Below, in pieces: positions 8,232 to 61,200 of a stretch of DNA of 64,000 nucleotides; the stretch's first letter is position 1; each line of letters starts with the position of its first letter. The position numbers and the translations under genes are program-made. The stretch is from an uncultured Alphaproteobacteria bacterium (GTDB lineage: Bacteria; Pseudomonadota; Alphaproteobacteria; JAPOUT01; G958296285). The notes under the pieces are model-generated. The model ran no database searches. It had not been told where the DNA came from and saw nothing but the letters and a program-made list of their open reading frames with translations. The stretch covers positions 1,282,762-1,346,761 of the forward strand of contig OY282459.1 in NCBI GenBank assembly GCA_958296285.1. Direction: 5' to 3'.

Positions 8232-9772
8232 GCGCCCCTTTCCCTGACGCCTCCGCTTTCCGCGACATTCACAATGCAGGCAAGACGCAGATCGTTCGGC
8301 TGACGCTGCCTGCCGATTTGGAAACGCCTGTCGCCGCGATGATCAAATTGGCGGCGGGGAAGCGCGGCGCGTTCCTTTTTGAATCGGTGGAGGGCGGAGA
8401 GGCTCGCGGACGCTATTCCGTCATCGGCTTCGCGCCGGACGCCATTTGGCGATCTTACGGCGCGAGATGCGAGATCAATCGGCAGGCGGCGCGAGACCCT
8501 GACGCTTTTGAGATTTTGAAAGAGCCGCCTTTGGACGCGCTTCGCCGTTTCATCGCGGAGTCGCGTTTTGATCTGCCTGACGGTTTGCCGTCTTTGTCGG
8601 CGGGTTTGTTCGGCTATATGGGCTACGACATGGCGCGTCATGCCGAGCGTTTCGGGTCTCCGCCGCCTGACGCGATTGGCATTCCGGACAGCGTTTTCGC
8701 GCGTCCGTCTCGTCTTGTGGTTTTTGATTCGGTCAGCGACACGATGATTTGCATTGTTCGCTCGTCTCCGCGCCGGGGGCGCTCGGCTGACGAGGCTTAT
8801 GACGAAGCCTGTCGCGCTTTGCGCGAGATGCGGACGGCTTTGCAGAGGCCTCTGATGCCGAAGGAGCGCGGCGAGGATAGCCAGAGCGATGAAGGCGATG
8901 AAAGCGGCGGGGGCGGCGCGTCTTCGTCTGTTTCCATGCCGGTGCCGCGGTCCAACATGCAGCGCGCGCTTTATTTGGAGAAGGTTCGGCGCGTTAAGGA
9001 GTATATTTTCGCTGGCGACATTTTTCAGGCTGTTTTGAGTCAGCGTTTTTCGGCGTCTTTTTCGCTTTCGCCCATGACGCTGTATCGGTCTTTGCGGCGG
9101 ATAAATCCGTCTCCTTATCTTTATTATTTGGATTTTGGGGATTTTTCGGTTGTTGGCTCAAGTCCTGAGATTTTGGTTCGGCTGCGCGAGGGCGTGGTGA
9201 CGATTCGTCCGATTGCCGGGACTCGTCCGCGCGGGGGGTCGGCGGCGGATGATCTTCGCATTGGCGAGGAGTTGTTGTCGGATCCGAAGGAGCGCGCCGA
9301 GCATTTGATGTTGTTGGATTTGGGTCGGAATGATGTTGGGAGGGTATCGGAGATTGGTTCTGTTCGCGTGACGGAGCGTTTCGCGCTGCAGCGGACGTCT
9401 CATCTCATTCACATTGTTTCCAATGTTGAGGGTGTTTTGCGGCGCGGTTTGGAGGCTTTGGACGCTTTGATGGCGGGTTTTCCTGCTGGGACGGTTTCGG
9501 GCGCGCCGAAGATTCGGGCGATGGAGATTATTGATGAGTTGGAGGATGAGAAGCGGAGTTTATATGCGGGGGCGGTGGGGTATTTTTCGGCGAATGGGGA
9601 TATGGACAGTTGCATTGCCTTGCGGACGGCGTTGGTTAAGGATGGGGTGATGTATGTTCAGGCGGGGGGTGGGATTGTGGCGGATTCGGAGCCTGCTTAT
9701 GAGTATCGGGAGTCTGTGAAGAAGGCGGAGGTTTTGTTTCGGGCTGCTGAGGCTGTTGGAGGCTCCCGTTGA
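8228..9772 (+). CDS. trpE: anthranilate synthase component I
   Basis: 514 aa, chorismate-binding C-terminal domain. The last codons (GGSR-stop) lie inside repeat module X. Confidence 0.93.
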   Translation: MSAPFPDASAFRDIHNAGKTQIVRLTLPADLETPVAAMIKLAAGKRGAFLFESVEGGEARGRYSVIGFAPDAIWRSYGARCEINRQAARDPDAFEILKEPPLDALRRFIAESRFDLPDGLPSLSAGLFGYMGYDMARHAERFGSPPPDAIGIPDSVFARPSRLVVFDSVSDTMICIVRSSPRRGRSADEAYDEACRALREMRTALQRPLMPKERGEDSQSDEGDESGGGGASSSVSMPVPRSNMQRALYLEKVRRVKEYIFAGDIFQAVLSQRFSASFSLSPMTLYRSLRRINPSPYLYYLDFGDFSVVGSSPEILVRLREGVVTIRPIAGTRPRGGSAADDLRIGEELLSDPKERAEHLMLLDLGRNDVGRVSEIGSVRVTERFALQRTSHLIHIVSNVEGVLRRGLEALDALMAGFPAGTVSGAPKIRAMEIIDELEDEKRSLYAGAVGYFSANGDMDSCIALRTALVKDGVMYVQAGGGIVADSEPAYEYRESVKKAEVLFRAAEAVGGSR

Positions 9773-10070
9773 GGGGGGTTTGGGGGGGCGGCGAGCCGCC
9801 GCGGGCATCTTTTTCATAGAGAGGCATTTTGGCTTTACCCCAGGGGAACTAATGCATAGAAGCTTGAGGTGAAGGGGGGGTTGGGGGGCTTGCCCCCCAA
9901 GAAAAACCAAGCGGGCGCAAGCCCGCTACGGGCGGCGGGCTTCTCGCGCACTTGCGCTACGCGCTGCGTGCGCTTCGTTGCGCCACGCCCGCCGACCTTT
10001 TCGGGGGGGATTCCCCCCGACCCCCCCTTTCTCAAGGGGGGCTAGCCCCCCTTGACCCCCCTCAAGAGGT
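9773..10070. repeat. Repeat cluster A: module X (+) about 9786-9880, degenerate Z-like palindromes about 9905-9995, module Y (+) about 9995-10065
   Basis: Near-identical copies of X and Y recur at 17390-17547. Multiple G6-N-C6 micro-palindromes (ggggggattcccccc, aaggggggctagccccccttg, ggggggcttgcccccc). No coding potential. Confidence 0.85.
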
Positions 10071-10084
10071 GCTATAGTCGCCCC

Positions 10085-10672
10085 ATGATCCTCCTCATAG
10101 ACAACTACGACTCCTTCACATACAACCTCGTCCATTTCCTCGGCGAACTGGGCGCCAAAACCAACGTCCAACGAAACAACGCCACATCAGCATCAAAAGC
10201 CCTCGCCAAAAAACCCCAAGCCATCATCATCTCCCCAGGACCCAAAACCCCAAACGAAGCAGGAATATCCCTAAATCTCATAAAAACCGCCGCCAAACAC
10301 AATATCCCAACCCTCGGCGTCTGCCTCGGACACCAAACCATCGGACAAGCCTTCGGCGCGAAAATCACCCGCGCCATCCCCACCCACGGCAAAATCAGCG
10401 CCATCAACCACAACAGCAAAGGAGTCTTCCAAAAACTCCCCTCACCCCTCCAAGCCACCCGATACCACTCCCTCATCATAGAAGAAAATACGCTGCCCCA
10501 ATGCCTCGCCATCACCGCGAGAACATCAGACGGAACAATCATGGGAATCCAACATAAAACCCTCAACGCCCACGGAGTCCAATTCCACCCCGAAAGCATT
10601 GAAACCGAACACGGACACAAAATCCTCCAAAACTTCCTCAAACTCGCAGGAATAAAAGGAATAAAAAAATGA
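10085..10672 (+). CDS. trpG: anthranilate synthase component II (glutamine amidotransferase)
   Basis: MILLIDNYDSFTYNLVHFLGELG, catalytic GVCLGHQ motif. Start set at MILLID (10085), not the upstream ORF-track start. The coding strand is extremely C+A-rich and G-poor. Confidence 0.93.
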   Translation: MILLIDNYDSFTYNLVHFLGELGAKTNVQRNNATSASKALAKKPQAIIISPGPKTPNEAGISLNLIKTAAKHNIPTLGVCLGHQTIGQAFGAKITRAIPTHGKISAINHNSKGVFQKLPSPLQATRYHSLIIEENTLPQCLAITARTSDGTIMGIQHKTLNAHGVQFHPESIETEHGHKILQNFLKLAGIKGIKK

Positions 10673-11694
10673 GCGAAAACCTCAAAAAAACCCTCGCGCT
10701 TATCGCGTCAGGCGAAAAACTCGCGCCCGCCCAAGCCGAAACCGCCTTCCAACATCTCATGTCCGGCGAAGCCAAAGACGCCGAAATCGGCGCGCTCCTC
10801 ATGGGACTCCATATGCGCGGCGAAACAACAGACGAAATCGCCGCCGCCGCCAAAATCATGCGCGCCGCCGCCACGCCCGTCCAAGCCCCGAAAAACGCCA
10901 TAGACCTCTGCGGAACAGGCGGCGATATGAAAGGAAGCCTCAATATCTCCACCGCCGCGTCTTTTATAGTCGCCGCCTGCGGCGTCCCGGTGGCGAAGCA
11001 CGGAAACCGCGCGCTCTCGTCTCAGTCAGGCGCGGCGGACGTCCTTTTGGCGCTCGGCGCTGAAACCGCCCTCCCGCCCCAGACCATCGCCCAATGCATC
11101 AAGGAAACGGGCATCGGCTTCCTCTTCGCGCCCTCGCACCACCCCGCCGCGAGACATGTCGCGCCGGCGCGCGCGGCGCTCGGCATCAGGACAATCTTCA
11201 ACCTCCTCGGACCTCTCTGCAATCCCGCCTTCGTCAAACGGCAACTGATCGGAGTCTTCGCGCCCGAATGGCTGACGCCCCTCGCCGAAGTGCTGCGCGA
11301 TTTGGGAAGCGAGCGCGTTTGGATCGTTCATGGCTCGGACGGGATGGACGAAATCACCCTTTCCGGCGAAACCCGCGCCGCCGAACTCAAAAACGGCAAA
11401 GTCCGCCCCTTCACGATCACGCCCGAAGAAGCAGGACTTCCTCGCGCTCCATCGGAGAGTCTCAAAGGCGGGACGCCTCAACAGAACGCGGCGGCTCTGC
11501 GGAGACTGTTGGACAGCGAAAGCGAAAACGGGGCTTATAGAGACGCTGCCGTTCTGAACGCGGCGGCGGCGCTCGTCATCGCGGAGAAGGCAGGAGATTT
11601 GCGCGAAGGCGCGGCGCAAGCCTCCGAATCTCTTTCCAGCGGACGCGCCGCCGACACCTTTCACGCCTTTCGCAATTTCACGAAGAAGCCATGA
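10669..11694 (+). CDS. trpD: anthranilate phosphoribosyltransferase
   Basis: Motifs DLCGTGGD and SSQSGAADVL, length 341 aa. Confidence 0.93.
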   Translation: MSENLKKTLALIASGEKLAPAQAETAFQHLMSGEAKDAEIGALLMGLHMRGETTDEIAAAAKIMRAAATPVQAPKNAIDLCGTGGDMKGSLNISTAASFIVAACGVPVAKHGNRALSSQSGAADVLLALGAETALPPQTIAQCIKETGIGFLFAPSHHPAARHVAPARAALGIRTIFNLLGPLCNPAFVKRQLIGVFAPEWLTPLAEVLRDLGSERVWIVHGSDGMDEITLSGETRAAELKNGKVRPFTITPEEAGLPRAPSESLKGGTPQQNAAALRRLLDSESENGAYRDAAVLNAAAALVIAEKAGDLREGAAQASESLSSGRAADTFHAFRNFTKKP

Positions 11695-14614: not shown

Positions 14615-15985
14615 TCACAGCAGAAAATACGCCGCCAAGCCCAAAAAGGCGAAAAAGCCGACAACATCCGTGACTGTCGTCAAAAACACGCCGGACGAAA
14701 TGGCGGGATCGGCGCCGATTTTCTCTAATGCCAGAGGGATCAGAATTCCAGCGAGCGCGGCGGTCAGCATATTGACAATCACGGCGGCGAAAAGAACCAT
14801 CCCAAGCGCGAAATTCTTAAACCACGCGCCTCCAATCACCCCCAAAATCACGGCAAGCGATACGCCATTCAGAACTCCCACGCCGATCTCGCGCATGATG
14901 ATCCTGCGCTGATTCGCCGCGACAAGCTCGCGAGTCGCCAGCGCGCGCACGGCGACGGTGAGAGTCTGAATGCCCGCCACGCCTCCCATGGACGCCACGA
15001 TCGGCATCAGAACCGCCAGCGCCACCATTCCGGCGATCGCGTCCTCAAAAAGCGCGATGACGACAGACGCCAAAATCGCCGTCATCAGATTGACGAAGAG
15101 CCATAAAAAGCGTCTGCGCGCCGATTCCAGCACCGTGCCGGAGAGTCTGTCGCGTCCGACTCCGCCGAGCCTCTTGATGTCTTCGCTCGCTTCTTCGGTG
15201 ATGACTTCCACGATGTCGTCCGCCGTGATCATGCCCATCAGCATGCCGTTCTGATCCACGACGGGCGCGCTGACCAGATTATATCGGCGGAAGGCTTCGG
15301 CGACATCTTCGCGGTCTTTATGGGCTTCTATCTTGAGAGGCTCGCCCTGCATCAGGCTGTTCAGAGACTCTTCGCGCTTGGCGCGGACGAGGCGGCTCGT
15401 CAAGACGCTTCCGATGAGTCTCCATGTCGGGCTGACGATATAGATTTCGTAGAAATCCTTCGGGAGTTCGGCGCTTTGGCGCAGATGGTCTATGACGCGT
15501 CCTACGCTCCAGAAGGCGGGGACGGCGACCAGATCGCGCTGCATGAGGCGTCCTGCGCTGTCTATCGGGTAATCCAGTCCGCGCTCAATATCGGAGCGCG
15601 CGCGGAGGGGAACGCGATCTAGGATATTTCTTCGGCGGGTTTCGTCCAGCCCTTCCACGAGGGCGAGCGCGTCATCGGAGGCGATTGTGGCGAGGGCGGG
15701 CGCGAGTTTTTCGGGGGCGAGGAGCGGGAGGATATCGGCGAGGACGCCTTCTTCCAGTTCCGAGAGGATTTCGGGCTTGAGTTCGTCATTGAGGAGGGTG
15801 ATGAGTTTGTGTCGTTCTTCGGGTTTGAGGAGTTCTAGGATTTCGGCGGCGTCTGCGGCGTGGAGTTCGTGGATTTGGTTTTGGAGTTTCGCGCGATGTT
15901 CCGCGGTGATGGCTTCGCGCGTTTCTTGGAGGATATTTGGGACGGGCGTTTCGGTGGGTTCCGTGGTGTGGGGGGGATTAGACAT
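14615..15985 (-). CDS. mgtE: magnesium transporter MgtE
   Basis: 456 aa, with MgtE N-domain, CBS pair and a C-terminal TM domain containing PIVASMGGVAGIQT-like motifs. Confidence 0.9.
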   Translation of the reverse strand: MSNPPHTTEPTETPVPNILQETREAITAEHRAKLQNQIHELHAADAAEILELLKPEERHKLITLLNDELKPEILSELEEGVLADILPLLAPEKLAPALATIASDDALALVEGLDETRRRNILDRVPLRARSDIERGLDYPIDSAGRLMQRDLVAVPAFWSVGRVIDHLRQSAELPKDFYEIYIVSPTWRLIGSVLTSRLVRAKREESLNSLMQGEPLKIEAHKDREDVAEAFRRYNLVSAPVVDQNGMLMGMITADDIVEVITEEASEDIKRLGGVGRDRLSGTVLESARRRFLWLFVNLMTAILASVVIALFEDAIAGMVALAVLMPIVASMGGVAGIQTLTVAVRALATRELVAANQRRIIMREIGVGVLNGVSLAVILGVIGGAWFKNFALGMVLFAAVIVNMLTAALAGILIPLALEKIGADPAISSGVFLTTVTDVVGFFAFLGLAAYFLL

Positions 15986-16096
15986 ACGCCGCGCCTTTTT
16001 TGCTTTTTTGTCTGTGGCGTATATTTAGCCTATGGGGGCTGATTTATAAAAGCCCCCGACTCTTTTGGATCGGGGGCGAGTTTGTGAGATTTTGTT

Positions 16097-16426
16097 CTAG
16101 GATGCTAATTTGAGAAGGATTGCGCCTGTCAGAGTGAAATTCGCTATCATGAAGGTGATGGTGACTCCGAACATCCATTTTAGCAGGCGCATGTCGGCTT
16201 GGACTTCTCCGAAGCGTTTTTCCATGTCTATTCTGAGTTCTCCGATCTGCGCGTTCATATCGGCGCGGAGTTCTCCGACCCGTTCTTCCACGTTCCGAAG
16301 CCGTTCTTCTATGTTCCGAAGCCGTTGCTCATCGCGGTTGGCTTCCAGCGCTTCTATAGCGGCGGTGGCTTTGTGATCGCTGACTTTCGCTTCTTTGAGG
16401 GCATCATAGACTGCGACGAGGCTCAT
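16097..16426 (-). CDS. DUF1640-like coiled-coil protein with C-terminal membrane anchor
   Basis: Heptad-like repeats (LRNIEERLRNVEERVGELRADMNAQIGELRIDMEKRFGEVQADM), then LLKWMFGVTITFMIANFTLTGAIL hydrophobic tail. Internal nucleotide direct repeat ttccgaagccgttcttc x2. Confidence 0.6.
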   Translation of the reverse strand: MSLVAVYDALKEAKVSDHKATAAIEALEANRDEQRLRNIEERLRNVEERVGELRADMNAQIGELRIDMEKRFGEVQADMRLLKWMFGVTITFMIANFTLTGAILLKLAS

Positions 16427-16489
16427 GGTTTATCTCCTTATGGTTGTGTTTTTGTAGCATTTTTGGTTCTTCTGCCGCAATCTTTAGAA

Positions 16490-16650
16490 GAAAGAAAAGG
16501 GGGGTGTGGGGGGTCGGAGACCCCCCGCGAAAAAGGGGGGATCGGGGGGATTCCCCCCCGAAAAGCGCGTGGGTGGGGTGGGGAAAAGAGCATTTGCGAG
16601 CGAAGCGTAAGCGTAGCGAGCAAATGCGACCCCACCCACGCGCCCCCTGC
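16490..16650. repeat. Repeat cluster B: G6/C6 micro-palindromes plus a module Y fragment (about 16500-16560) and module Z (- orientation, about 16565-16645)
   Basis: The Z copy gcgcgtgggtggggtgggg...gcatttgcgagcg...cgagcaaatgcgaccccacccacgcgcc is the reverse complement of 17302-17393. Z is itself an imperfect ~90-nt palindrome. Confidence 0.85.
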
Positions 16651-16672
16651 TCGCAGGAGCTACTGATTCAGA

Positions 16673-17131
16673 TCAAAGATCGCCAAGCCTGCGCCGAAAC
16701 ACTTCATCAAACTTTTCTAATCTCTCCTTGAACCAAGCATATTGCGCGCATCTGTGGTTCATATTTTCCCAATCAGCTTCCTCTTCCCAGCTTTGGGTAA
16801 TAGATGGGAATCCCCATTGCAGTGGTGGAGGTGTGCCAATTTCCCTCTCAATGGCTTCTTTATCTGCATGCAGTTGGTTAAAACATTCCTTAGCGTAAAG
16901 CATGTCGGTGTCGGGGACAGGAAAACTTTTGCCATAGATAGAAAACCTAACAGCTACCTTGCGCGGCGGCGTCTTATAAAAACACGCCCATATGCGAAAG
17001 CCTGCTCTCCCCATAGAGAATCCTAGAGTGCTGCCAGACGACCGACAACGCCCGCGCCCAATATGTGAGTCAGACGCTCTGAGGCACTTAAGCAAACCTT
17101 GCCAATAGAGGCGGTGTTCTTCTTTAGACAT
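16673..17131 (-). CDS. hypothetical protein, DUF4268-like; low-GC (~47%) islet gene
   Basis: 152-aa ORF with a clean start 18 nt downstream of the tRNA-Leu 3' end. GC is far below surrounding DNA, and the ORF sits between inverted Z elements. Confidence 0.55.
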   Translation of the reverse strand: MSKEEHRLYWQGLLKCLRASDSHIGRGRCRSSGSTLGFSMGRAGFRIWACFYKTPPRKVAVRFSIYGKSFPVPDTDMLYAKECFNQLHADKEAIEREIGTPPPLQWGFPSITQSWEEEADWENMNHRCAQYAWFKERLEKFDEVFRRRLGDL

Positions 17132-17149: not shown

Positions 17150-17236
17150 TGGTGCGGTCGAGAAGACTCGAACTTCCACGGGGTTGCCCCCACAGCGCCC
17201 TCAACGCTGCGCGTCTACCTATTCCGCCACGACCGC
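17150..17236 (-). tRNA. tRNA-Leu (anticodon GAG), 87 nt with long variable arm, CCA encoded
   Basis: Reverse complement GCGGTCGTGGCGGAATAGGTAGACGCGCAGCGTTGAGGGCGCTGTGGGGGCAACCCCGTGGAAGTTCGAGTCTTCTCGACCGCACCA folds as a cloverleaf with anticodon loop TTGAGGG. Confidence 0.85.
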
Positions 17237-17246
17237 ATCCAAAACA

Positions 17247-17275
17247 CAATTAGCAGAAATTAACCAACCCCTCAA
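17247..17275 (-). promoter_or_regulatory. putative sigma70-type promoter for tRNA-Leu (-35 TTGAGG, 17-nt spacer, -10 TAATTG)
   Basis: Read on the minus strand immediately upstream of the tRNA 5' end; hexamer spacing is canonical. Sequence-only inference. Confidence 0.3.
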
Positions 17276-17279
17276 CCTC

Positions 17280-17547
17280 GCTAGAAATCTTGCGAACAGG
17301 GGGCGCGTGGGTGGGGTCGCATTTGCTCGCTCGCTACGCCACGAGTGGCTTCTCTTCGCTCGCAAATGCTTTTTTCCCCACCCCACCCACGCGCTTTCGG
17401 GGGGATTCCCCCGAACCCCCTTTCTCAAGGGGGGCTAGCCCCCCTTGACCCCCCTTCACCTCAAGCTTCTATGAATTAGTTCCCCCTGGGGCAAACCCAA
17501 AATGCCTCTCTATGAAAAAAATGCCCGCGGCGGCTCGCCGCCCCCCC
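17280..17547. repeat. Repeat cluster C: module Z (+, about 17302-17393), module Y (+, about 17393-17455), module X (-, about 17451-17547)
   Basis: X(-) is the reverse complement of 9786-9880 with few mismatches. Y is a direct copy of 9995-10060. X abuts and extends into the cysH stop codon. Confidence 0.85.
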
Positions 17548-18312
17548 TTAACGGGAGCCTCCATGAATCCCGCACTCCTCCTTCTCTAAACCACCCCATC
17601 TACCATCACGATACGAACCCCCCGAACCAACAGAAGCCGTGCAAGGAACACACCCTATAGACAAATACCCACGCTTCACCAACGGATGAACAACCAAACT
17701 ATGCCGCTCAACATAAGAACCAAGAGCCTCCTGATCCCAATCCACAAGAGGATTAATGGAAAACCGCGCCACGCTCCCCGCCATCTCCCGAAACTCTATC
17801 GCCTCCAAAATCGCCCGACTCGCCGTCTGAAAACGCTTCCGACCCGTGATCACCGCCTCAAATCCCCCCAACGCCCGCCGCAACGGCAAAACCTTCCGAA
17901 AATGACAGCAAGCGTCAGGATCCTCGCTCCAAAGAGAACCATCCGAATCCAACCGCGCCCGATCCACAGGATCAGGACCAATGGAACGCAAATCCGTCAA
18001 ACCCAGCCGATCCTGCAATAAATCACGATAGCGAAGAGTCTCCGGAAACAACTTCCCCGTATTCAGAAAAATCACGGGAACAGACGGATCAATCTCCGAA
18101 ACCATATGCAGCAAAACCACCGACTCCGAACCAAAAGACGAAACCACCGCAATCCTGCCCGGAAAAACCTCCTTGATCATCGCCTCAAGAAGAGGCTTGC
18201 CGGACAGCGCATATTCACGCCGCAACATCTCAAGACGCGCCGCCGCCTCGGCAGGAACCTCCCCCGAAGCGCGAGGCATCGGAATCTCGGCGCGATTCTC
18301 TAAACCAGCCAT
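17548..18312 (-). CDS. cysH: phosphoadenylyl-sulfate/adenylyl-sulfate reductase (thioredoxin-dependent, Fe-S type)
   Basis: PAPS-reductase fold (SFGSESVVLLHM), CC...CxxC cysteine pairs (ACCHFRKV, CVPCT) and C-terminal ECGIH motif. The coding strand is extremely G+T-rich. Confidence 0.88.
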   Translation of the reverse strand: MAGLENRAEIPMPRASGEVPAEAAARLEMLRREYALSGKPLLEAMIKEVFPGRIAVVSSFGSESVVLLHMVSEIDPSVPVIFLNTGKLFPETLRYRDLLQDRLGLTDLRSIGPDPVDRARLDSDGSLWSEDPDACCHFRKVLPLRRALGGFEAVITGRKRFQTASRAILEAIEFREMAGSVARFSINPLVDWDQEALGSYVERHSLVVHPLVKRGYLSIGCVPCTASVGSGGSYRDGRWGGLEKEECGIHGGSR

Positions 18313-18845
18313 TTTTGATCCTCCATCATCGCGCGGCTTTTCTCACGGACAGCGCTCGGCGCTAATCCCTGATCGCGCCACCGATCCCGCGCCGCCGACA
18401 GCGCCAACAAACGATCGCGCCATTCCGCCCCATAATGGCGAGAGAGATCATCACGAAGCATCCGCGCCGCCGAAGGCGATCTGCCTCCGGTGGAAACGGC
18501 GAAAAGCAAATCCCCTCGCCGCAAAATGGACGGAACATGAAAATCGCACAAAGCCGGAATGTCTTCTGTGTTGACAAGAGCGCCGACAGCGCGCGCGCGA
18601 GCCGCGAGCGGACGGGCTTCCTCTTCCGAAAATCCCGCGATGAACAGAATCGCGCCGCGCATCTCCTCATCTTTCGGAAGACGCCGCCGAATCGGAAAAC
18701 TCATCAGAGCCTCACCGCGCGGCGCGTAGATTTCCGCCTCCATCTTTGCCGCTCCGATGAGCCGACAGCGTTTTAACAGCGGCTCGCCCTCGCCAATGAG
18801 GAGAATCTTTTTCCGATTCGGGTTAAGGACGATCGGCAGCATCAT
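18300..18845 (-). CDS. standalone siroheme-synthase N-terminal domain (precorrin-2 dehydrogenase/sirohydrochlorin ferrochelatase, SirC/Met8-like)
   Basis: Rossmann-like LLIGEGEPLLKRCRLIGAAKM, then motif PSILRRGDLLFAVSTGGRSPSAARMLRDDLS as in the CysG N-domain. Adjacent to cysH. Confidence 0.65.
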   Translation of the reverse strand: MMLPIVLNPNRKKILLIGEGEPLLKRCRLIGAAKMEAEIYAPRGEALMSFPIRRRLPKDEEMRGAILFIAGFSEEEARPLAARARAVGALVNTEDIPALCDFHVPSILRRGDLLFAVSTGGRSPSAARMLRDDLSRHYGAEWRDRLLALSAARDRWRDQGLAPSAVREKSRAMMEDQKWLV

Positions 18846-18916
18846 GCCTATAATATCGGACTTGCGCGGACGAAAAGCAAGCGCCCCCCTGCCTCCCCTG
18901 CCCTATAGACAATGCG

Positions 18917-55421: not shown

Positions 55422-56180
55422 TCAGCCCTTCTCCACTTGATTGTATCCGAGCTCCACCGGCGTGGATCTGCCGAAAATGGAGACCGAAACTTTTAACCGC
55501 GAGCGCTCCACATCCACATCCTCCACAACGCCGTTGAAGGAGGCGAACGGCCCGTCCGAAACGCGAACCTGCTCGCCGATGGAGAAAATGACCGAAGGGC
55601 GGGGTCTGTCCACGCCCTGCCGCATCTGCCCCAAGATTCTATCCACCTCGCCCTGCGACAGAGGCTGCGGGGAATCGGCGTCCCCCAAAAAGCCCGTCAC
55701 GCGAGGCAGATTGCGTATGAAATGCTGCGTCTCTCCGTTCATCTCCATTTTTAGAAGCAGATAGCCAGGGAACAATTTGCGCTTGACCTCTTTATTTTGC
55801 CCGCGCCGCATCTCCAGCACTTCCTCCACAGGCACGAGCATTTCGTCAAAATACTCCGCCAAGCCTTGAGGAACCATGCGCTCCTTTATGGTGTCGCAGA
55901 CGCGCTGCTCAAAATTGGATTGCGTATGCACGATATACCACGCCTTCTTCTCGTCTTGATCTTCGCCGTCAGGCTTGTTGCCCGCAGGTTCGCCCGAGGG
56001 CTCGCCGCCGGCAGGCTTGCCGCCGGCAGGTTCGCCCGAGAGCTCGCCAGAGGGTTCGCCGCCGGCAGGTTCGCCGCCAGCAGGCTCGCCCGAGGGCTCG
56101 CCGCCGGCAGGCTCGCCCGAGAGCTCGCCGCCTGCGGCTTCGCTCGGCAGTTCTTTCTCAACCTTATCGCTGTCGGTCAT
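55422..56180 (-). CDS. nusG: transcription termination/antitermination factor NusG with ~80-aa acidic ([10 protein letters not shown])n N-terminal repeat extension
   Basis: NGN core [17 protein letters not shown] and KOW motif. Start at MTDSDK; the ORF-track upstream Gly/Phe-rich extension is rejected. Confidence 0.9.
55975..56160. repeat. in-frame 15-nt tandem repeat array inside the nusG 5' region, encoding ([10 protein letters not shown])n
   Basis: Direct repeats ggttcgcccgagggctcgccgccggcaggc... visible in the sequence. Confidence 0.8.
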
Positions 56181-56194
56181 GCTCTCTCTTCCCT

Positions 56195-56482
56195 TCAAGC
56201 GAAAACCCGCAGGATATAGCCCACCGCCGAAGACAGAATCTGATCCGCCAAGAAAAAAAACACCGCCGCCAAAAAAACCATGATGAAAACCATCACCGTC
56301 GTGACAACCGTCTCGCTCCGCGTGGGCCAAGTGACGCGCGCGGCTTCGGAGCGCACCTCGCGCAGAAAAATGAGCGGATTGCTCTTTTTCTTCGGCTCTT
56401 GAGGCGGCGGCGCGAGAGCCTCGCGCTCATCATGCCTCATAGAGGCGAGCCTCTTTTTCGCGGTTGATGCCATAGATTCCAT
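56195..56482 (-). CDS. secE: preprotein translocase subunit SecE
   Basis: C-terminal motif EVRSEAARVTWPTRSETVVTTVMVFIMV. Exact start uncertain. Confidence 0.88.
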   Translation of the reverse strand: MESMASTAKKRLASMRHDEREALAPPPQEPKKKSNPLIFLREVRSEAARVTWPTRSETVVTTVMVFIMVFLAAVFFFLADQILSSAVGYILRVFA

Positions 56483-58253: not shown

Positions 58254-61200
58254 TCAAAATGCTCCTGCAACGCCAAAACGAATGAAACGATCCGAAGAGC
58301 CTCTGATATGCCCCGCTTCCCTATGCCAGCCCGCCGAAATCTTCATAGAAACCCCATCCGACAACGGCTTGACATAAAGCGCCTCCAAGTGAATCGCCCG
58401 CCCGGAAGGTTTTAAAGACCCCTCTGCCCTCTGATCAATGAGAGACCCGTCTCGGCGGCGGGAAACGGCGTAATCCAAGGCGAAGCCGCCCTTCTCCACC
58501 CGCAAAGGCTGACGCGCGCGCAGGGCGATCCAATCTTCCTGCGAGAAAACGCCGCGCTTGCCCAAGCCCGCCGTGAAAGCGCTCATCACGATCGGGCCTT
58601 TTAACGACAAAAGCGAAACGCCGTCAATCTTCGGCGACATGAAGCCCGCCTCGGCGCTGATAAAGAGATGCCAGCCGCGCGCGAGCGCCTTCTCATGCGA
58701 GACGCCAAAAAACCAATTTTCTCGCGCGCCGTCCGCATGGAACGCGCCATCGCTCCAGCCCCCCAAAAGCCGATCTTCCTCGCGCAAAAGTCCGGCATGA
58801 AGATTCCAGCCCTCCCAAGCGAAATGCGCCAGCAAAGCGTATGAGGCTTTTTCTTCGCGGCTCGCGTCCCGCGCGTGATCCTGCCAGAGAGGCTTGCCTG
58901 AAAAAAGACCAAGATTCATAGAATAATCGCCGCCCTCCCAAGACAGCCCCGCGCCCACGCCATCGGCGATCAAAGAAAAATGCGCCGGAGACCTCTCGCG
59001 CCAAAGAGGCGACCGCGTCTCCGCCGCCATCAGAGCGGCGGGATGCTGAATGCCGAAAACCCGCGCCCCCAAAAGACGATAAGGCTCAACGCGGCGCTTC
59101 GCGCCGAGCGGTCTCAGAAAATCCCCCATCGCGTCAGGCGCGGCAAGGCTGAAATAACGACCAAGAGACGAATAAAAGGGCGCGCTCAACGCGTCAAACC
59201 GCGCGATGATCCTGCCCCGCAAAGCGCGGGCGAGACTGTCGCCGAGAGCCGGCGGCGCGACAAAGAAACTCTCCGCCGACAAAAAGGACGCTCTTGAGCC
59301 GCCCGCCCCCGCCGCCCCGCTCATGGAAGTCGCGCCGACAGGACGAGTCGCGGCGTCTATGTCTAAAAGCCCATGCCCGTAAATGTCGCTGTCGGCATAG
59401 ATGCCGGAACTGTCCGCCGTCTGCAGCAGACGCCATGCCAATTCCGGCGCGCCCATCGTGTCGCCGAAGGCTTCCATCAGGATCGCCAAAGCGCCCGCCA
59501 CATGCGGCGCGGCGAAAGAGGTGCCTTGCACAAGAACATCCGCGCGATCCGTGCCTTTCGCCGACACGCCTTCTCCGAAAGCGGCGAGACACCACTCCTT
59601 CGCATGACCGCATTTGTGATAGTTCGGAATAAGAGCCCCTGCCGTGTAGCGGGTTCTCGCTTCATTCAGAACCCTCCGCAGGGCGACAACGGCGAGGATC
59701 AGAGGCCTGTTCCTGTCCGCGCCGAGAAGATCGGGGAAATAGAAGGGCGTGTCGGAGAAGAGTCGGGGATGATCTTCATCCCAGCCGGGCCCTATAATCA
59801 TCCCTTCAGGGTTTCGAATATCCTCTGCGATATTCCCTGCGGAATAGACATAGACCGTCCTGTCCTCTTCGGGCGTATCATTTTGGCGGAAGACCTCATA
59901 ATAGTTGATGCTCGGGTTATTGATTCTTGCCTTTATCCTCGCTATCTCGCTTTCGGTGGCGGTCTCATAGTCGGCGATCACAATTTGCGTGATACCGTCA
60001 AAGAAGAGGATAGACTGGCTGACATTGACGATCTTCACATGATTTTGGAAATAGGCGAGACCGCTGGTGCTGGCCGTTGTTCCTGAATGGAGGAGAATCT
60101 TGGCGTTGAAAGCGATTCCATGAAAATCGGTGAGGCTGCCGCCGGCATCCCCCCTCTTCGCCGCGACAACGCCGCTCACGTGATTCCCATGCAGCAAAGT
60201 GATGCCGCTGTTCATGCCCACCAAGATTTCGCAATCTGTCGCGCTCGCGACCGTGCCGGCGGCAGGGCAATTCCTCACGCGGATCAGATCGGTATAAAGA
60301 CCATCGCTCGCCTGCGCATCGGTCAGAAGCGTCCGCCCTGCAGGAAGGCGGAATTGTTGGGCTGTGATCGTCGTTTCCATGGTGACGGGATCGGTGTTCG
60401 TTTCGCCTATCGCGCAATTGGTCGTTGTCGGCGTGGTGACGTCGGCGGGATTGAGCGCCGCGCCGGTGCAATTGTCCGCCGGCAGATAATATCTGTCCAC
60501 GCCCAACACTCCCCTGTCATGGGCGACGGTGAGCCTGCCGGCATAAGCGTTCACGAGAGAGGCGTCCCAGAGATGTCCCTCCAGCACGCCGACCGTCTGC
60601 CCCGCGCCGGTGAAGCCTCGCGCATAGGCTTCGGCGGCGCCGGACGCCTCAAAGCCGGGCTGCGTGCGATATTCCTGCGTCCTCCAAAAAACCGCCGAGC
60701 GAGAGAGCGTAGGCACGGTGATGCTCCAAACCTTCTGCGTGGCGTGTTTTGTCAGCGTGAAGCCGCCTAGAGTCGTGAGATCGCCCACGGTGAAGGTTCC
60801 CGTCCCGGTGAAAAGATTGATGACCGTCCCTGAGGCGGTGCTGGAGGGAAGGCTTACGCGGAGATTCCCCTTCAACGTCACATTCGCCGCGCCGAAATCA
60901 AGAAGCGCGGTCGCGCCTGACGGAAGGACGCGAATCTGAAAGGTCAGTTCGCCGCCGTCATTTTGCAAAAAAGTCTCCAAACCCTGAATCGCGAGCCTGC
61001 TGCCCATGATCCGAAGGTTCAGATCGCCGCTGTTGGTGAAACTGTCGCCCGTGCCGCCGCCGAAATTGGCATTGGCGGTCAGAGTCATGCGGGCGTCCGC
61101 CATATTGGTGACCGTGTCGCTGCCCGCGCCGAGGTCAAAGCCGCCGATGAAAGCGCCGTGATTGTTAAAAACATCCGCCGCGCCGCTCGCCGTGATGCTG

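What the first reader, a model, noticed from the sequence alone, without database searches (positions are those of the whole stretch)
8900..11100. Extreme, symmetric strand-composition gradient centred on repeat cluster A (trpE 3' half G+T-rich; trpG C+A-rich)
Direct base counts on the + strand give, at 9421-9480, G 42%, T 35%, C 15%, A 8%, and at 9121-9180, G 33%, T 47%, C 12%, A 8%. Just across the repeat, 10201-10260 gives C 45%, A 37%, G 10%, T 8%. Both genes are transcribed from the + strand, so this is not a sense-transcription effect. The bias decays over ~1 kb on each side, balanced by ~8800 and ~11500. It reshapes third codon positions (trpG almost never uses G-ending codons) and amino-acid content: the TrpE tail is V/G/L/S/R/F-rich and TrpG is K/N/T/P/Q/H-rich. 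On both flanks the strand whose 3' end points at the repeat is G+T-rich. That is the signature expected from cumulative C->T and A->G deamination of 3'-ended single strands, for example recurrent breakage at the hairpin-forming repeats followed by 5' resection. Local skew of this magnitude is far beyond replication-associated GC skew.
Basis: partly seen in the sequence, partly recalled or inferred. Interest (0 to 1): 0.85.

Follow-up and report, generated by a model that had tools for sequence, protein, structure and literature searches.

The report
Mutation-skew halos around palindromic repeat elements
In this small alphaproteobacterial genome, every cluster of G-run/C-run hairpin repeats is flanked for about 1 kb on each side by DNA whose silent codon positions are almost all G/T on one strand, which points to a very strong, local, strand-specific mutation process that I could not find described for bacteria.

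Summary
Left of repeat cluster A (9773-10084) the + strand is G+T-rich and right of it A+C-rich. Third-codon-position keto skew is +0.75 in the trpE 3' part and -0.87 in trpG; 25 background genes give -0.04 +/- 0.12. A second locus in the window (mgtE | repeats+cargo+tRNA-Leu | cysH, genes on the other strand) has the same polarity. So do four more clusters fetched from a sister strain's 1.72-Mb genome.

A syntenic relative without the repeats (L004) shows no skew. Unrelated organisms carrying the same hairpin motif show none either.

Purine content is unchanged, so the bias consists of transitions only: C>T and A>G on the strand whose 3' end faces the element. The profile is the same on four flanks: plateau for 0-800 nt, shoulder to about 1.2 kb, baseline beyond about 1.4 kb. 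Cargo between the element arms is unskewed. Proteins remain under purifying selection, and the flanks are not more polymorphic between strains than control regions.

Best reading: a mutational footprint of recurrent single-strandedness of the 3'-facing strand. The most likely cause is breakage or excision at the palindromic element followed by outward 5' resection. The break itself is inferred, not shown. A polar replication block that leaves daughter-strand gaps is the main rival.

The parts
8470..9772 (+). Left flank of element A (trpE 3' two-thirds). The + strand is G+T-rich. Third-position keto skew is 0.4 at 8470-8950 and 0.65-0.85 at 8950-9772.
9773..10084 (.). Element A: a 312-nt nested GC-rich palindrome with no cargo. 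The left end has G-run doublets (9773, 9874), and sub-element X lies at 9782-9898. Hairpins are G6CTTGC6 (9883), G7ATTC6 (10003) and G6CTAGC6 (10036). The right end has C-run doublets (10013, 10046). The skew changes sign here.
   Evidence: (ssDNA fold -97 kcal/mol, z -5.5)
10085..11400 (+). Right flank of element A (trpG and the 5' two-thirds of trpD). The + strand is A+C-rich. Third-position keto skew is -0.87 in trpG and -0.65 to 10900, then decays to about -0.1 by 11400.
15150..16496 (-). Left flank of element B (mgtE 5' part 15150-15985 and orf109 16097-16426, both on the - strand). The + strand is G+T-rich, with third-position skew +0.53 and +0.38.
16497..16668 (.). Element B, left arm. 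It holds G-run doublets (16499, 16535), the G6ATTC7 hairpin, the long GCGTGGGTGGGG...CCCCACCCACGC hairpin, and half of the central CCCCCTGCT hairpin.
   Evidence: (z -7.1)
16673..17131 (-). Cargo ORF (152 aa, DUF4268). It is low in GC (0.45-0.53) and unskewed (third-position skew -0.10). In sister strain L002 a GST gene takes its place.
17150..17236 (-). tRNA-Leu(GAG), which is ancestral at this position. It is present and 98% identical in the repeat-free relative L004, and here it lies between the two arms.
17275..17547 (.). Element B, right arm. It is the inverted counterpart of the left arm (I3, I4). It carries hairpins G6ATTC5 (17399) and G6CTAGC6 (17429), C-run doublets (17408, 17439), and sub-element X in reverse orientation (17430-17547).
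   Evidence: (z -6.7)
17548..18850 (-). Right flank of element B (cysH and a siroheme-synthase-like gene, both on the - strand). The + strand is A+C-rich. Third-position skew is -0.76 over cysH and decays by about 18850.

Best explanation
The skew is a mutational footprint, not a product of selection. The genome carries many copies of a modular, nested GC-rich palindromic element. Its left end consists of G-run doublets and its right end of the complementary C-run doublets. It is about 310 nt long when empty and can carry cargo genes in its centre.

Over evolutionary time, the DNA just outside each end has repeatedly existed with only one strand intact. The strand whose 5' end abuts the element is removed for roughly 0.8-1.4 kb. 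The strand whose 3' end faces the element is left single-stranded. On that exposed strand, deamination-type transitions (C>T and A>G) accumulate. They become fixed when the partner strand is resynthesised, until silent sites approach a new equilibrium.

The most likely trigger is a double-strand break at the element. This could be hairpin cleavage of the SbcCD type, or excision by an end-cutting enzyme, followed by outward 5'->3' resection and repair from the sister chromosome. Such repair recopies the element and its cargo without exposing them.

Shown: the association with the elements, the polarity, the transitions-only spectrum, the common distance profile, the absence in a repeat-free relative, the unskewed cargo, and intact purifying selection.

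Inferred: single-strandedness, the break, resection, and deamination as the chemistry.

I put about 0.7 on 'recurrent exposure of the 3'-facing strand' and about 0.45 on the specific break-plus-resection route.
For: 1. Association. The only two G-run/C-run hairpin loci in the 64-kb window coincide with its only two extended runs of strongly skewed 200-nt windows. Four more clusters in 20-kb neighbourhoods of the sister genome behave identically. Left flanks give third-position skew +0.38 to +0.75 and right flanks -0.30 to -0.87, against 25 background genes at -0.04 +/- 0.12.
2. End-type polarity. Of 27 G-doublet ends, 20 have outward skew above +0.2 and none below -0.2. Of 26 C-doublet ends, 14 are below -0.2 and none above +0.2. 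Inner sides are about 0.
3. Causality controls. The syntenic relative L004 has no elements at either locus and no skew. Unrelated contigs with the same palindromes, 35 for one and 1 for the other, show no skew.
4. Spectrum. At synonymous sites the purine fraction is unchanged against L004 (44/39, 37/39, 57/62 and 57/63%), while T/C odds go from 0.43 to 3.8 and G/A odds from 2.3 to 11.5. The bias is present in all dinucleotide contexts. The four flanks converge on the same composition: G .36, T .31, C .18, A .14.
5. A common length scale on four flanks: plateau 0-800 nt, shoulder 800-1200 nt, baseline beyond 1400 nt.
6. The skew is independent of gene orientation. bioB, which sits between two elements, flips sign in mid-gene.
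7. Cargo between arms is unskewed, including a 1.2-kb RmuC gene in both halves. Cargo also differs between near-identical strains. A break or excision that is repaired from the sister would produce exactly this.
8. The elements fold far better than shuffles as single strands (z -5.5 to -7.1).
9. Precedents. Resected DSB ends give strand-coordinated ssDNA mutation clusters that switch strand at the break (PMC6786661, PMC3521656). SbcCD cleaves palindrome hairpins in E. coli, and repair comes from the sister chromosome (PMC3315005, PMC4752480). Vertebrate mtDNA shows C>T and A>G bias on the strand left single-stranded during replication (PMC3269012; the gradient with exposure time is from my own knowledge).
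Against: - There is no direct evidence of breaks, nicks or single-stranded DNA.
- Flank divergence between three strains equals controls, and differences are not directional (27 vs 27). The process could therefore be at equilibrium, for which I calculate only a 1.3-2.6-fold rise in neutral flux, or it could be extinct.
- A>G is boosted nearly as much as C>T, whereas hydrolytic adenine deamination is much slower than cytosine deamination. This needs preferential uracil repair, nitrosative chemistry or another source.
- AddAB/RecBCD-type enzymes degrade both strands up to a Chi site, so single-stranded DNA would not start exactly at the break.
- No transposase, SbcCD gene or other nuclease candidate was seen in about 165 kb sampled.
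- Unskewed cargo may simply be young.
- A few elements lying in island-like DNA have no flank skew.
Confidence: 0.45

Rival explanations
1. Polar replication block. DNA polymerases leaving the element are stalled by the hairpin or G-run structures at its ends. The template beyond the end then stays single-stranded as a daughter-strand gap until repriming or the previous Okazaki fragment, which is about 1 kb away. The exposed template accumulates C>T and A>G. One passing fork exposes both flanks on the observed strands.
For: The polarity matches for any polymerase blocked at the element. The strand beyond the block is the one whose 3' end faces the element (geometry worked out). The 0.8-1.4 kb length scale is similar to Okazaki or post-replication gap sizes, which I take from established knowledge. 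The ends are polar, with G-runs always on the strand that is keto-rich outside. The structures are very stable. In the window the right flanks are slightly stronger than the left ones (-0.87 vs +0.75 and -0.76 vs +0.53). That could reflect a lagging/leading difference if forks move leftward, as the orientation of the ribosomal operons suggests.
Against: If blocks occurred at the first structure met, the cargo interior should be skewed, and it is not. Canonical G-quadruplex motifs are nearly absent at the ends. The flanks are close to symmetric, although the leading and lagging situations are very different. The model does not explain strain-variable cargo.
Confidence: 0.25
2. Nick-directed strand replacement. 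A nick at each element end repeatedly directs excision of the nicked strand outward, by mismatch-repair-like or RecJ-type 5'->3' removal with tracts of about 1 kb. Errors or lesions on the surviving strand are then always copied, and those on the removed strand are always erased. Uncorrected G:T mispairs give A>G and C>T at similar rates.
For: The bias is transitions only, with A>G boosted about as much as C>T. That resembles mismatch-repair-deficient spectra, which I take from established knowledge. The kilobase tract length fits. Polarity by end type fits. Very frequent double-strand breaks are not required.
Against: No nicking enzyme or motif has been identified. The model requires the nick always to be on the strand whose 5' end faces outward. 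A locally raised transition rate of this kind should raise divergence between strains, and none is seen.
Confidence: 0.1
3. A dedicated enzyme system: a deaminase or other mutator is recruited to the element ends and travels outward on one strand, giving natural targeted hypermutation.
For: The effect is specific to this lineage. The same hairpin motif elsewhere gives no skew. Both A and C are affected. The reach is sharp and reproducible.
Against: There is no sequence-context preference. No deaminase-like gene was found in about 165 kb sampled. The targets are housekeeping genes under purifying selection, so no benefit is apparent.
Confidence: 0.05
4. Selection rather than mutation. G+T-rich 3'-ended strands are favoured next to fragile elements because they carry Chi-like or RecA-loading sequences in the active orientation, or because the composition avoids pairing with the element.
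For: The orientation is the one in which Chi acts and RecA prefers GT-rich DNA (established knowledge). G-runs and C-runs are enriched in the flanks.
Against: The bias affects nearly every silent site (third-position skew 0.7-0.9) and all contexts, which is far more than motif selection needs. It also pushes amino-acid composition against purifying selection.
Confidence: 0.05
5. An ordinary source of skew: a replication origin or terminus, transcription, horizontally acquired DNA, or an assembly artefact.
For: The sign change has terminus-like polarity.
Against: There are two sign changes within 7 kb and 17 clusters in 165 kb. The magnitude is 5-10 times normal. The coding strand is the wrong one in half of the flanking genes. 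The flanking genes are as similar to orthologues as their neighbours are. The pattern is present in three independent assemblies, one of them a circular HiFi contig, with intact reading frames.
Confidence: 0.02

Closest known systems
Strand-coordinated mutation clusters at resected double-strand breaks (yeast and cancer 'kataegis'; PMC6786661, PMC3521656)
   Same: The mutated strand is the 3'-ended one. The mutated strand switches at the break. The reach is on the kilobase scale. The cause is damage to single-stranded DNA.
   Different: Those are single somatic or experimental events, mostly C-specific with a deaminase or chemical motif. Here the bias is fixed and near equilibrium at evolutionary scale. 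It involves both C>T and A>G with no motif, and it is anchored on repeat elements in a bacterial chromosome.
Asymmetric mutation gradients in vertebrate mitochondrial DNA (reviewed in PMC3269012)
   Same: C>T and A>G accumulate on the strand that spends time single-stranded, making that strand G+T-rich. The strength is graded with exposure.
   Different: In mtDNA there is one gradient per genome, set by strand-displacement replication. Here there are many short, mirror-symmetric gradients centred on palindromic elements.
SbcCD-cleaved palindromes in E. coli (PMC3315005, PMC4752480)
   Same: A long palindrome or interrupted inverted repeat forms a hairpin and is cut once per replication. The break is repaired from the sister chromosome by converging synthesis.
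   Different: That is an engineered 246-bp palindrome. No compositional footprint has been reported there. The nuclease in the present lineage is unknown.
REP/BIME, Correia, RPE and other MITE-like palindromic repeats
   Same: Short GC-rich imperfect palindromes, modular and multicopy, lying between genes. They sometimes extend reading frames (here ...GGSR* of TrpE and CysH), and their content varies between strains.
   Different: No such family is known to carry kilobase-scale strand-skew halos. The present elements can hold cargo genes between their arms. No RAYT or transposase was found in the DNA sampled.
Replication-associated GC/keto skew with sign change at the terminus; bidirectional asymmetries at human CpG islands (PMC2817419)
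   Same: A sign change of G-C and T-A skew at a defined point, attributed to asymmetric strand exposure.
   Different: Here the magnitude is 5-10 times larger, the reach is only about 1.4 kb, there are many sites per genome, and the pattern is independent of replication origin and of gene orientation.

Membership tests
Replication-associated strand skew (ori/ter switch) | One sign change at the origin and one at the terminus per replicon | tested here: not met
   Two mirror-symmetric sign changes lie 7 kb apart in the window. There are 17 clusters in 165 kb.
Replication-associated strand skew (ori/ter switch) | Modest, chromosome-arm-wide magnitude | tested here: not met
   Third-position keto skew is 0.7-0.9, confined to about 1.4 kb. 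Background genes give -0.04 +/- 0.12.
Transcription-associated skew | The non-template (coding) strand is the G+T-rich one | tested here: not met
   The coding strand is A+C-rich in trpG, mgtE 5', orf192, bioB 5' and HAD.
Single-strand-exposure deamination gradient (mtDNA type) | Excess of C>T and A>G on one strand, with transversions unaffected | tested here: met
   The purine fraction at synonymous sites is unchanged against the orthologue, while T/C odds rise about 9-fold and G/A odds about 5-fold. This is inferred from equilibrium composition, not from polarised substitutions.
Single-strand-exposure deamination gradient (mtDNA type) | Strength graded with exposure or distance | tested here: met
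   A plateau-shoulder-baseline profile is shared by four flanks.
Single-strand-exposure deamination gradient (mtDNA type) | A demonstrated single-stranded intermediate | not testable with these tools
   Needs ssDNA-seq, END-seq or 2D gels.
Resection-associated strand-coordinated clusters | The mutated strand is the 3'-ended one and switches at the break site | tested here: met
   11 of 11 flanks measured in detail follow this, and the end-type census gives 34 ends with the predicted sign and 0 with the opposite beyond |0.2|.
Resection-associated strand-coordinated clusters | Deaminase target motif (for example TC for APOBEC) | tested here: not met
   The bias is raised in every 5' and 3' neighbour context.
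Resection-associated strand-coordinated clusters | A physical double-strand break at the site | not testable with these tools
   No read-level or experimental data are available.
REP/BIME / MITE-like palindromic repeats | Multicopy, short, imperfect GC-rich palindromes between genes, with terminal inverted ends | tested here: met
   Shared modules occur at 17 clusters. The G-doublet left end is the reverse complement of the C-doublet right end. The elements form strong single-strand folds.
REP/BIME / MITE-like palindromic repeats | A cognate transposase (RAYT or DDE) in the genome; target-site duplication | tested here: inconclusive
   None was found among the genes of about 165 kb sampled. 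Target-site duplication was not tested.
Integron gene cassettes (attC) | intI integrase with attI and an array of co-oriented cassettes, each ending in attC | tested here: not met
   There is no integrase nearby. The elements are dispersed among housekeeping genes and cargo orientation varies.
Diversity-generating retroelement | Reverse transcriptase, a template/variable repeat pair, adenine-specific changes in a target gene | tested here: not met
   There is no RT or TR/VR pair. Both C and A are affected, mainly at silent sites of housekeeping genes.

The most novel reading that the evidence does not exclude
The palindromic elements are active agents of a previously unrecognised, element-anchored local hypermutation process in bacteria. 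Each copy, through its own ends and a host or element-encoded enzyme (an end-cutting nuclease, or even a strand-tracking deaminase), drives strand-specific C>T and A>G mutagenesis of about 1 kb of neighbouring host DNA on each side. At the roughly 1 cluster per 10 kb seen in the sampled DNA, this would remodel a substantial part of the genome's silent sites and shift the composition of adjacent proteins.
Probability: 0.15. Interest if true: 0.95.

Novelty: new variant of a known kind. Interest (0 to 1): 0.85.

Why it matters
If this is a mutational footprint, it is a natural, evolution-scale record of where and on which strand a bacterial chromosome is recurrently single-stranded. The effect (5-9-fold shifts in transition odds, silent sites nearly saturated) is much stronger than replication skew.

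It would show that small palindromic repeats can dominate the local mutation regime of neighbouring housekeeping genes such as trpE, trpG, cysH, bioB and sdhC. They would bias codon usage and, to a lesser extent, protein composition.

It would also give a sequence-only read-out of resection or gap tract length (about 0.8-1.4 kb) in an uncultured organism. That makes testable the open question of whether hairpin repeats are chronic break or stall sites in wild genomes.

There are practical consequences too. Such halos will mislead skew-based origin finding, codon-usage-based detection of horizontal transfer, and substitution models.

Tried and rejected
- Rfam scan of 8-19 kb: only the tRNA scored; nothing matched the repeats.
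- Exact scan of species-representative genomes with the 24-nt palindrome: one unrelated Solirubrobacterales MAG, without skew. The source genome is not among those representatives.
- Metagenome scan with the core of element X: 0 hits.
- Second metagenome scan with TTGGGGGGCTAGCCCCCCAA: 35 unrelated contigs, none skewed. These are useful only as a negative control.
- A 2289-aa chimeric six-frame 'repeat peptide' query meant to fish out spurious ORFs over other copies: nothing at E<=0.001.
- Exact look-ups of the window's own TrpE and TpiA: not on record, so the window's own 1.733-Mb genome could not be walked.
- Polarising recent substitutions with three strains: almost all flank differences lie on the unrooted window branch. 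Pooled direction is 27 vs 27, which is uninformative about an ongoing process.
- G-quadruplex block idea: canonical motifs are almost absent.
- Promoter scan: no consensus sigma-70 site in the elements. Outward transcription, outward strand displacement and nick translation were rejected because each predicts the opposite polarity.
- Inversion between the inverted X copies of loci A and B: rejected, because it predicts block-wise skew rather than edge-peaked skew.
- Literature searches: no description of such halos was found.

Full report
OBSERVATION

On the + strand, GC skew climbs to +0.55 at 9500-9700 and AT skew is about -0.3 to -0.5. Both reverse inside the trpE-trpG intergenic repeat cluster and reach about -0.5 and +0.5 at 10100-10400.

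Expressed as keto skew (G+T-A-C), the values are +0.42 and -0.50. The window median is -0.03 with a robust sd of 0.10. A left-minus-right 'flip score' peaks at 9900 with 0.71, the largest in the window, and 500 block shuffles never exceeded 0.41.

trpG third positions are C113 A69 G7 T6. By codon position the signal sits overwhelmingly at third positions: +0.65 to +0.85 in the last 800 nt of trpE, -0.87 in trpG, and -0.65 in the first 230 nt of trpD.

THE SAME THING OCCURS ELSEWHERE

The window holds a second locus with identical polarity: keto-rich at 15150-16496 and amino-rich at 17548-18850. The flanking genes there (mgtE, orf109, cysH) lie on the minus strand, so the polarity follows the chromosome coordinate and not gene orientation.

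Between these flanks lie two inverted repeat arms (16497-16668 and 17275-17547). They bracket a low-GC cargo ORF (DUF4268) and tRNA-Leu.

G-run/C-run hairpins (G5+ N3-6 C5+) occur only at these two loci in 64 kb. None has the opposite C...G arrangement.

RELATIVES

A TrpE search found a 98%-identical protein on a circular-looking 1.72-Mb contig and on a 15.8-kb contig of another sample. It also found a 64%-identical protein on a 470-kb contig. Everything else was at or below 61% and came from alphaproteobacterial MAGs.

The two close strains (L002, L003) carry repeat clusters at both loci and show the same skews. The 64% relative (L004) is syntenic, but has only 45 bp between trpE and trpG and 235 bp between mgtE and cysH, including the same tRNA-Leu. 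It shows no skew at either place.

The hairpin motif alone is not sufficient. One unrelated genome contig with TCAAGGGGGGCTAGCCCCCCTTGA and 35 unrelated metagenome contigs with TTGGGGGGCTAGCCCCCCAA have no flanking skew.

GENERALITY WITHIN THE LINEAGE

The small ORF next to locus B (orf109) turned out to belong to a multicopy family found almost only in this lineage. I used its paralogues to fetch about 100 kb of further DNA from the sister strains.

Four additional strict clusters examined in detail behave the same way:
- Exo_endo_phos +0.71 | orf192 -0.52 and bioB 5' -0.64
- bioB 3' +0.63 | HAD -0.69
- PolyA_pol 3' +0.74 | (locus end)
- SIR2 +0.57 | cargo RmuC +0.08 | antiporter -0.75

bioB sits between two elements and changes sign in mid-gene.

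An automatic census of 17 clusters, sorted by end type, gave these results:
- G-run-doublet ends: outward (left) skew above +0.2 in 20 of 27, and never below -0.2.
- C-run-doublet ends: outward (right) skew below -0.2 in 14 of 26, and never above +0.2.
- Inner sides: about zero.
- A few elements embedded in island-like DNA have no halo. That fits slow accumulation after insertion.

WHAT THE ELEMENTS ARE

They are nested GC-rich palindromes built from shared modules:
- an outer G-run doublet on the left and its reverse complement on the right;
- G6-N4-C6 hairpins;
- a GTCGGCGGGC...GCCCGCCGAC hairpin;
- a central CCCCCTGCT...AGCAGGGGG hairpin.

Empty copies are about 310-320 nt long (window 9773-10084; L040 19792-20140). 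Filled copies hold cargo in the centre: DUF4268, GST, HTH, RmuC.

As single strands they fold far better than shuffles, with z from -5.5 to -7.1. Module content and cargo differ between strains that are 96-99% identical. No Rfam family matches them. I saw no transposase, integrase or deaminase in the sampled DNA.

NATURE OF THE BIAS

I compared codons that encode the same amino acid in the window and in L004:

| Region | Window third positions | L004 third positions |
|---|---|---|
| trpE 3' part | G82 T81 C24 A2 | G44 T53 C62 A30 |
| trpG | G6 T3 C68 A35 | G22 T28 C40 A22 |

cysH and mgtE behave analogously.

The purine fraction is unchanged in all four flanks while the keto/amino ratio shifts greatly. 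The bias is therefore made of transitions: C>T and A>G on the strand whose 3' end faces the element. Pooled odds move from T/C 0.43 to 3.8 and from G/A 2.3 to 11.5.

The bias appears in every dinucleotide context. Read on their keto-rich strand, the four flanks converge on one composition (G .36, T .31, C .18, A .14), which is what an equilibrium would give. The distance profile is strikingly uniform: about 0.7 for 0-800 nt, about 0.37 for 800-1200 nt, 0.2 to 1400 nt, then baseline.

CONSEQUENCES FOR PROTEINS AND POLYMORPHISM

- The skewed half of TrpE is no more diverged from 57 outgroups than the L004 protein is (0.69-0.71 against 0.66-0.67 identity).
- Amino-acid shifts exist but are moderate.
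- Between the three strains, the flanks are not more divergent than controls (1.2-1.8% against 1.2-3.2%).
- Transition differences show no directional excess (27 vs 27).
- The repeat clusters themselves are highly variable.

So the skew is stationary on the time scale of strain divergence. The predicted 'elevated SNP density' is not seen. My own calculation says an equilibrium bias of this size would raise neutral flux only 1.3-2.6-fold.

MECHANISM

Several explanations predict the wrong polarity or the wrong pattern and are rejected:
- sense transcription, because half of the flanking genes have the 'wrong' strand enriched;
- outward transcription from the element;
- outward strand-displacement synthesis;
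- nick translation;
- a replication origin;
- inversion of the segment between loci A and B.

A terminus has the right polarity, but it cannot occur many times per 100 kb.

What fits is any process in which the strand whose 5' end abuts the element is missing over about 1 kb, so that the complementary strand is single-stranded or is the only template.

I rank break or excision at the element with outward 5' resection first, for four reasons. It is naturally symmetric. It acts only outward from the ends. It leaves the cargo untouched, because the cargo is recopied from the sister chromosome. And it accounts for cargo turnover. There are precedents in SbcCD cleavage of palindromes (PMC3315005, PMC4752480) and in strand-coordinated ssDNA mutagenesis at resected breaks (PMC6786661, PMC3521656). 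The pairing of C>T with A>G on an exposed strand is the pattern known from mitochondrial DNA (PMC3269012).

The main rival is a polar polymerase block at the structured ends that leaves daughter-strand gaps. It gives the same polarity and length scale. However, it predicts skew inside old cargo and a dependence on replication direction, and canonical G4 motifs are lacking.

Nick-directed strand replacement, a dedicated mutator and selection for GT-rich 3' tails are less likely, but my data do not exclude them.

The comparable boost of A>G and C>T argues against simple hydrolytic deamination. None of the models explains it fully.

COMPARISON WITH WHAT IS KNOWN, AND NOVELTY

The elements resemble REP/BIME or MITE-type palindromic repeats. 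The bias resembles mtDNA-type and resection-type single-strand mutagenesis. The sign change resembles a replication terminus.

I found no report of kilobase-scale, near-saturated, mirror-symmetric transition-skew halos anchored on palindromic repeats in a bacterial chromosome (the literature covered was limited). I therefore class it as a new variant of a known kind, namely compositional strand asymmetry caused by asymmetric strand exposure. It is of high interest because of its magnitude and reproducibility, and because it offers a sequence-only record of chronic DNA fragility or stalling at repeats.

LIMITS

- The whole genomes could not be read. Sampling of extra loci was guided by orf109 paralogues, which are themselves associated with the elements.
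- Substitution direction is inferred from equilibrium composition against a distant relative, not from polarised changes.
- Breaks, single-stranded DNA and the enzymes involved are all inferred.

Noticed in passing
window 16097-16426 (-); also L040 10001-10914, L043 6617-7045 and 10001-10321, L045 10001-10441, L046 5501-5893, L048 10001-10324: orf109 belongs to a multicopy family of small coiled-coil plus C-terminal TM proteins that is restricted to this lineage. The search gave 36 hits, nearly all from the two 1.7-Mb genomes, and two of them hit PF07798/DUF1640. The genes usually sit directly beside or inside a palindromic element and share a conserved 5' leader (AAAGATTGCGG...AAAAATGCTACA...AAGGAGATAARCC-ATG).
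   Followed up: partly
window 9758-9772 and 17548-17562: Sub-element X supplies the last codons and the stop (...GGSR*) of both TrpE and CysH, in opposite orientations. The repeat has therefore become the 3' end of two unrelated housekeeping genes.
   Followed up: partly
window 16673-17131 vs L002 18764-19438: The cargo between the arms at the tRNA-Leu locus differs between strains that are 96-99% identical: a DUF4268 ORF in one and a glutathione S-transferase in the other. Elsewhere the arms bracket HTH_3, RmuC and MTase-HNH genes. The elements mark hot spots of gene turnover.
   Followed up: partly
window 10049-10085: The right end of element A contains TTGACC-N15-TATAGT, ending 9 nt before the trpG ATG. 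This could be an element-borne promoter giving a near-leaderless trpG mRNA. The consensus scan did not score it because the spacer is 15 nt.
   Followed up: no
window 10003-10018, 16544-16559, 17399-17412; L040 9828-9843: The hairpin loops carry short methylation-type palindromes: GANTC (GATTC/GAATC, the CcrM-type site of Alphaproteobacteria), GATC and CTAG.
   Followed up: no
L005-L039 (for example L010 1733, L021 678, L028 693, L032 940): The palindrome TTGGGGGGCTAGCCCCCCAA, often followed by ACCCCCC, recurs in 35 unrelated metagenome contigs with GC content from 35 to 69%. This hints at a widely dispersed small palindromic module. None of these contigs shows flanking skew.
   Followed up: partly
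L040 8754-9764: Biotin synthase lies between two elements 1.7 kb apart. Its third-position skew flips from -0.64 in the 5' part to +0.63 in the 3' part within the one gene.
   Followed up: yes
L045 11667-11714; L046 5902-6125: Elements embedded in island-like, defence-gene-rich DNA (PDDEXK, ThsB_TIR, MTase) have little or no flanking skew. This is consistent with recent arrival of the element or of its flanks.
   Followed up: partly
L043 7072-7097: There is a poly-C tract of 17 nt between an orf109 paralogue and a 926-aa ORF. It could be a slippage or phase-variation site.
   Followed up: no
window 55422-56330 (-), repeats at 55964-56144: The NusG ORF has a 128-aa N-terminal extension that contains seven copies of a 27/15-nt tandem repeat. 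Whether this is a real low-complexity extension or an over-long ORF call is unclear.
   Followed up: no
window 58254-63992 (-): A 1912-aa ORF with a subtilase (Peptidase_S8) domain and internal repeats of about 590 nt (62126, 62729, 63320). It is probably a large secreted or surface protein.
   Followed up: no
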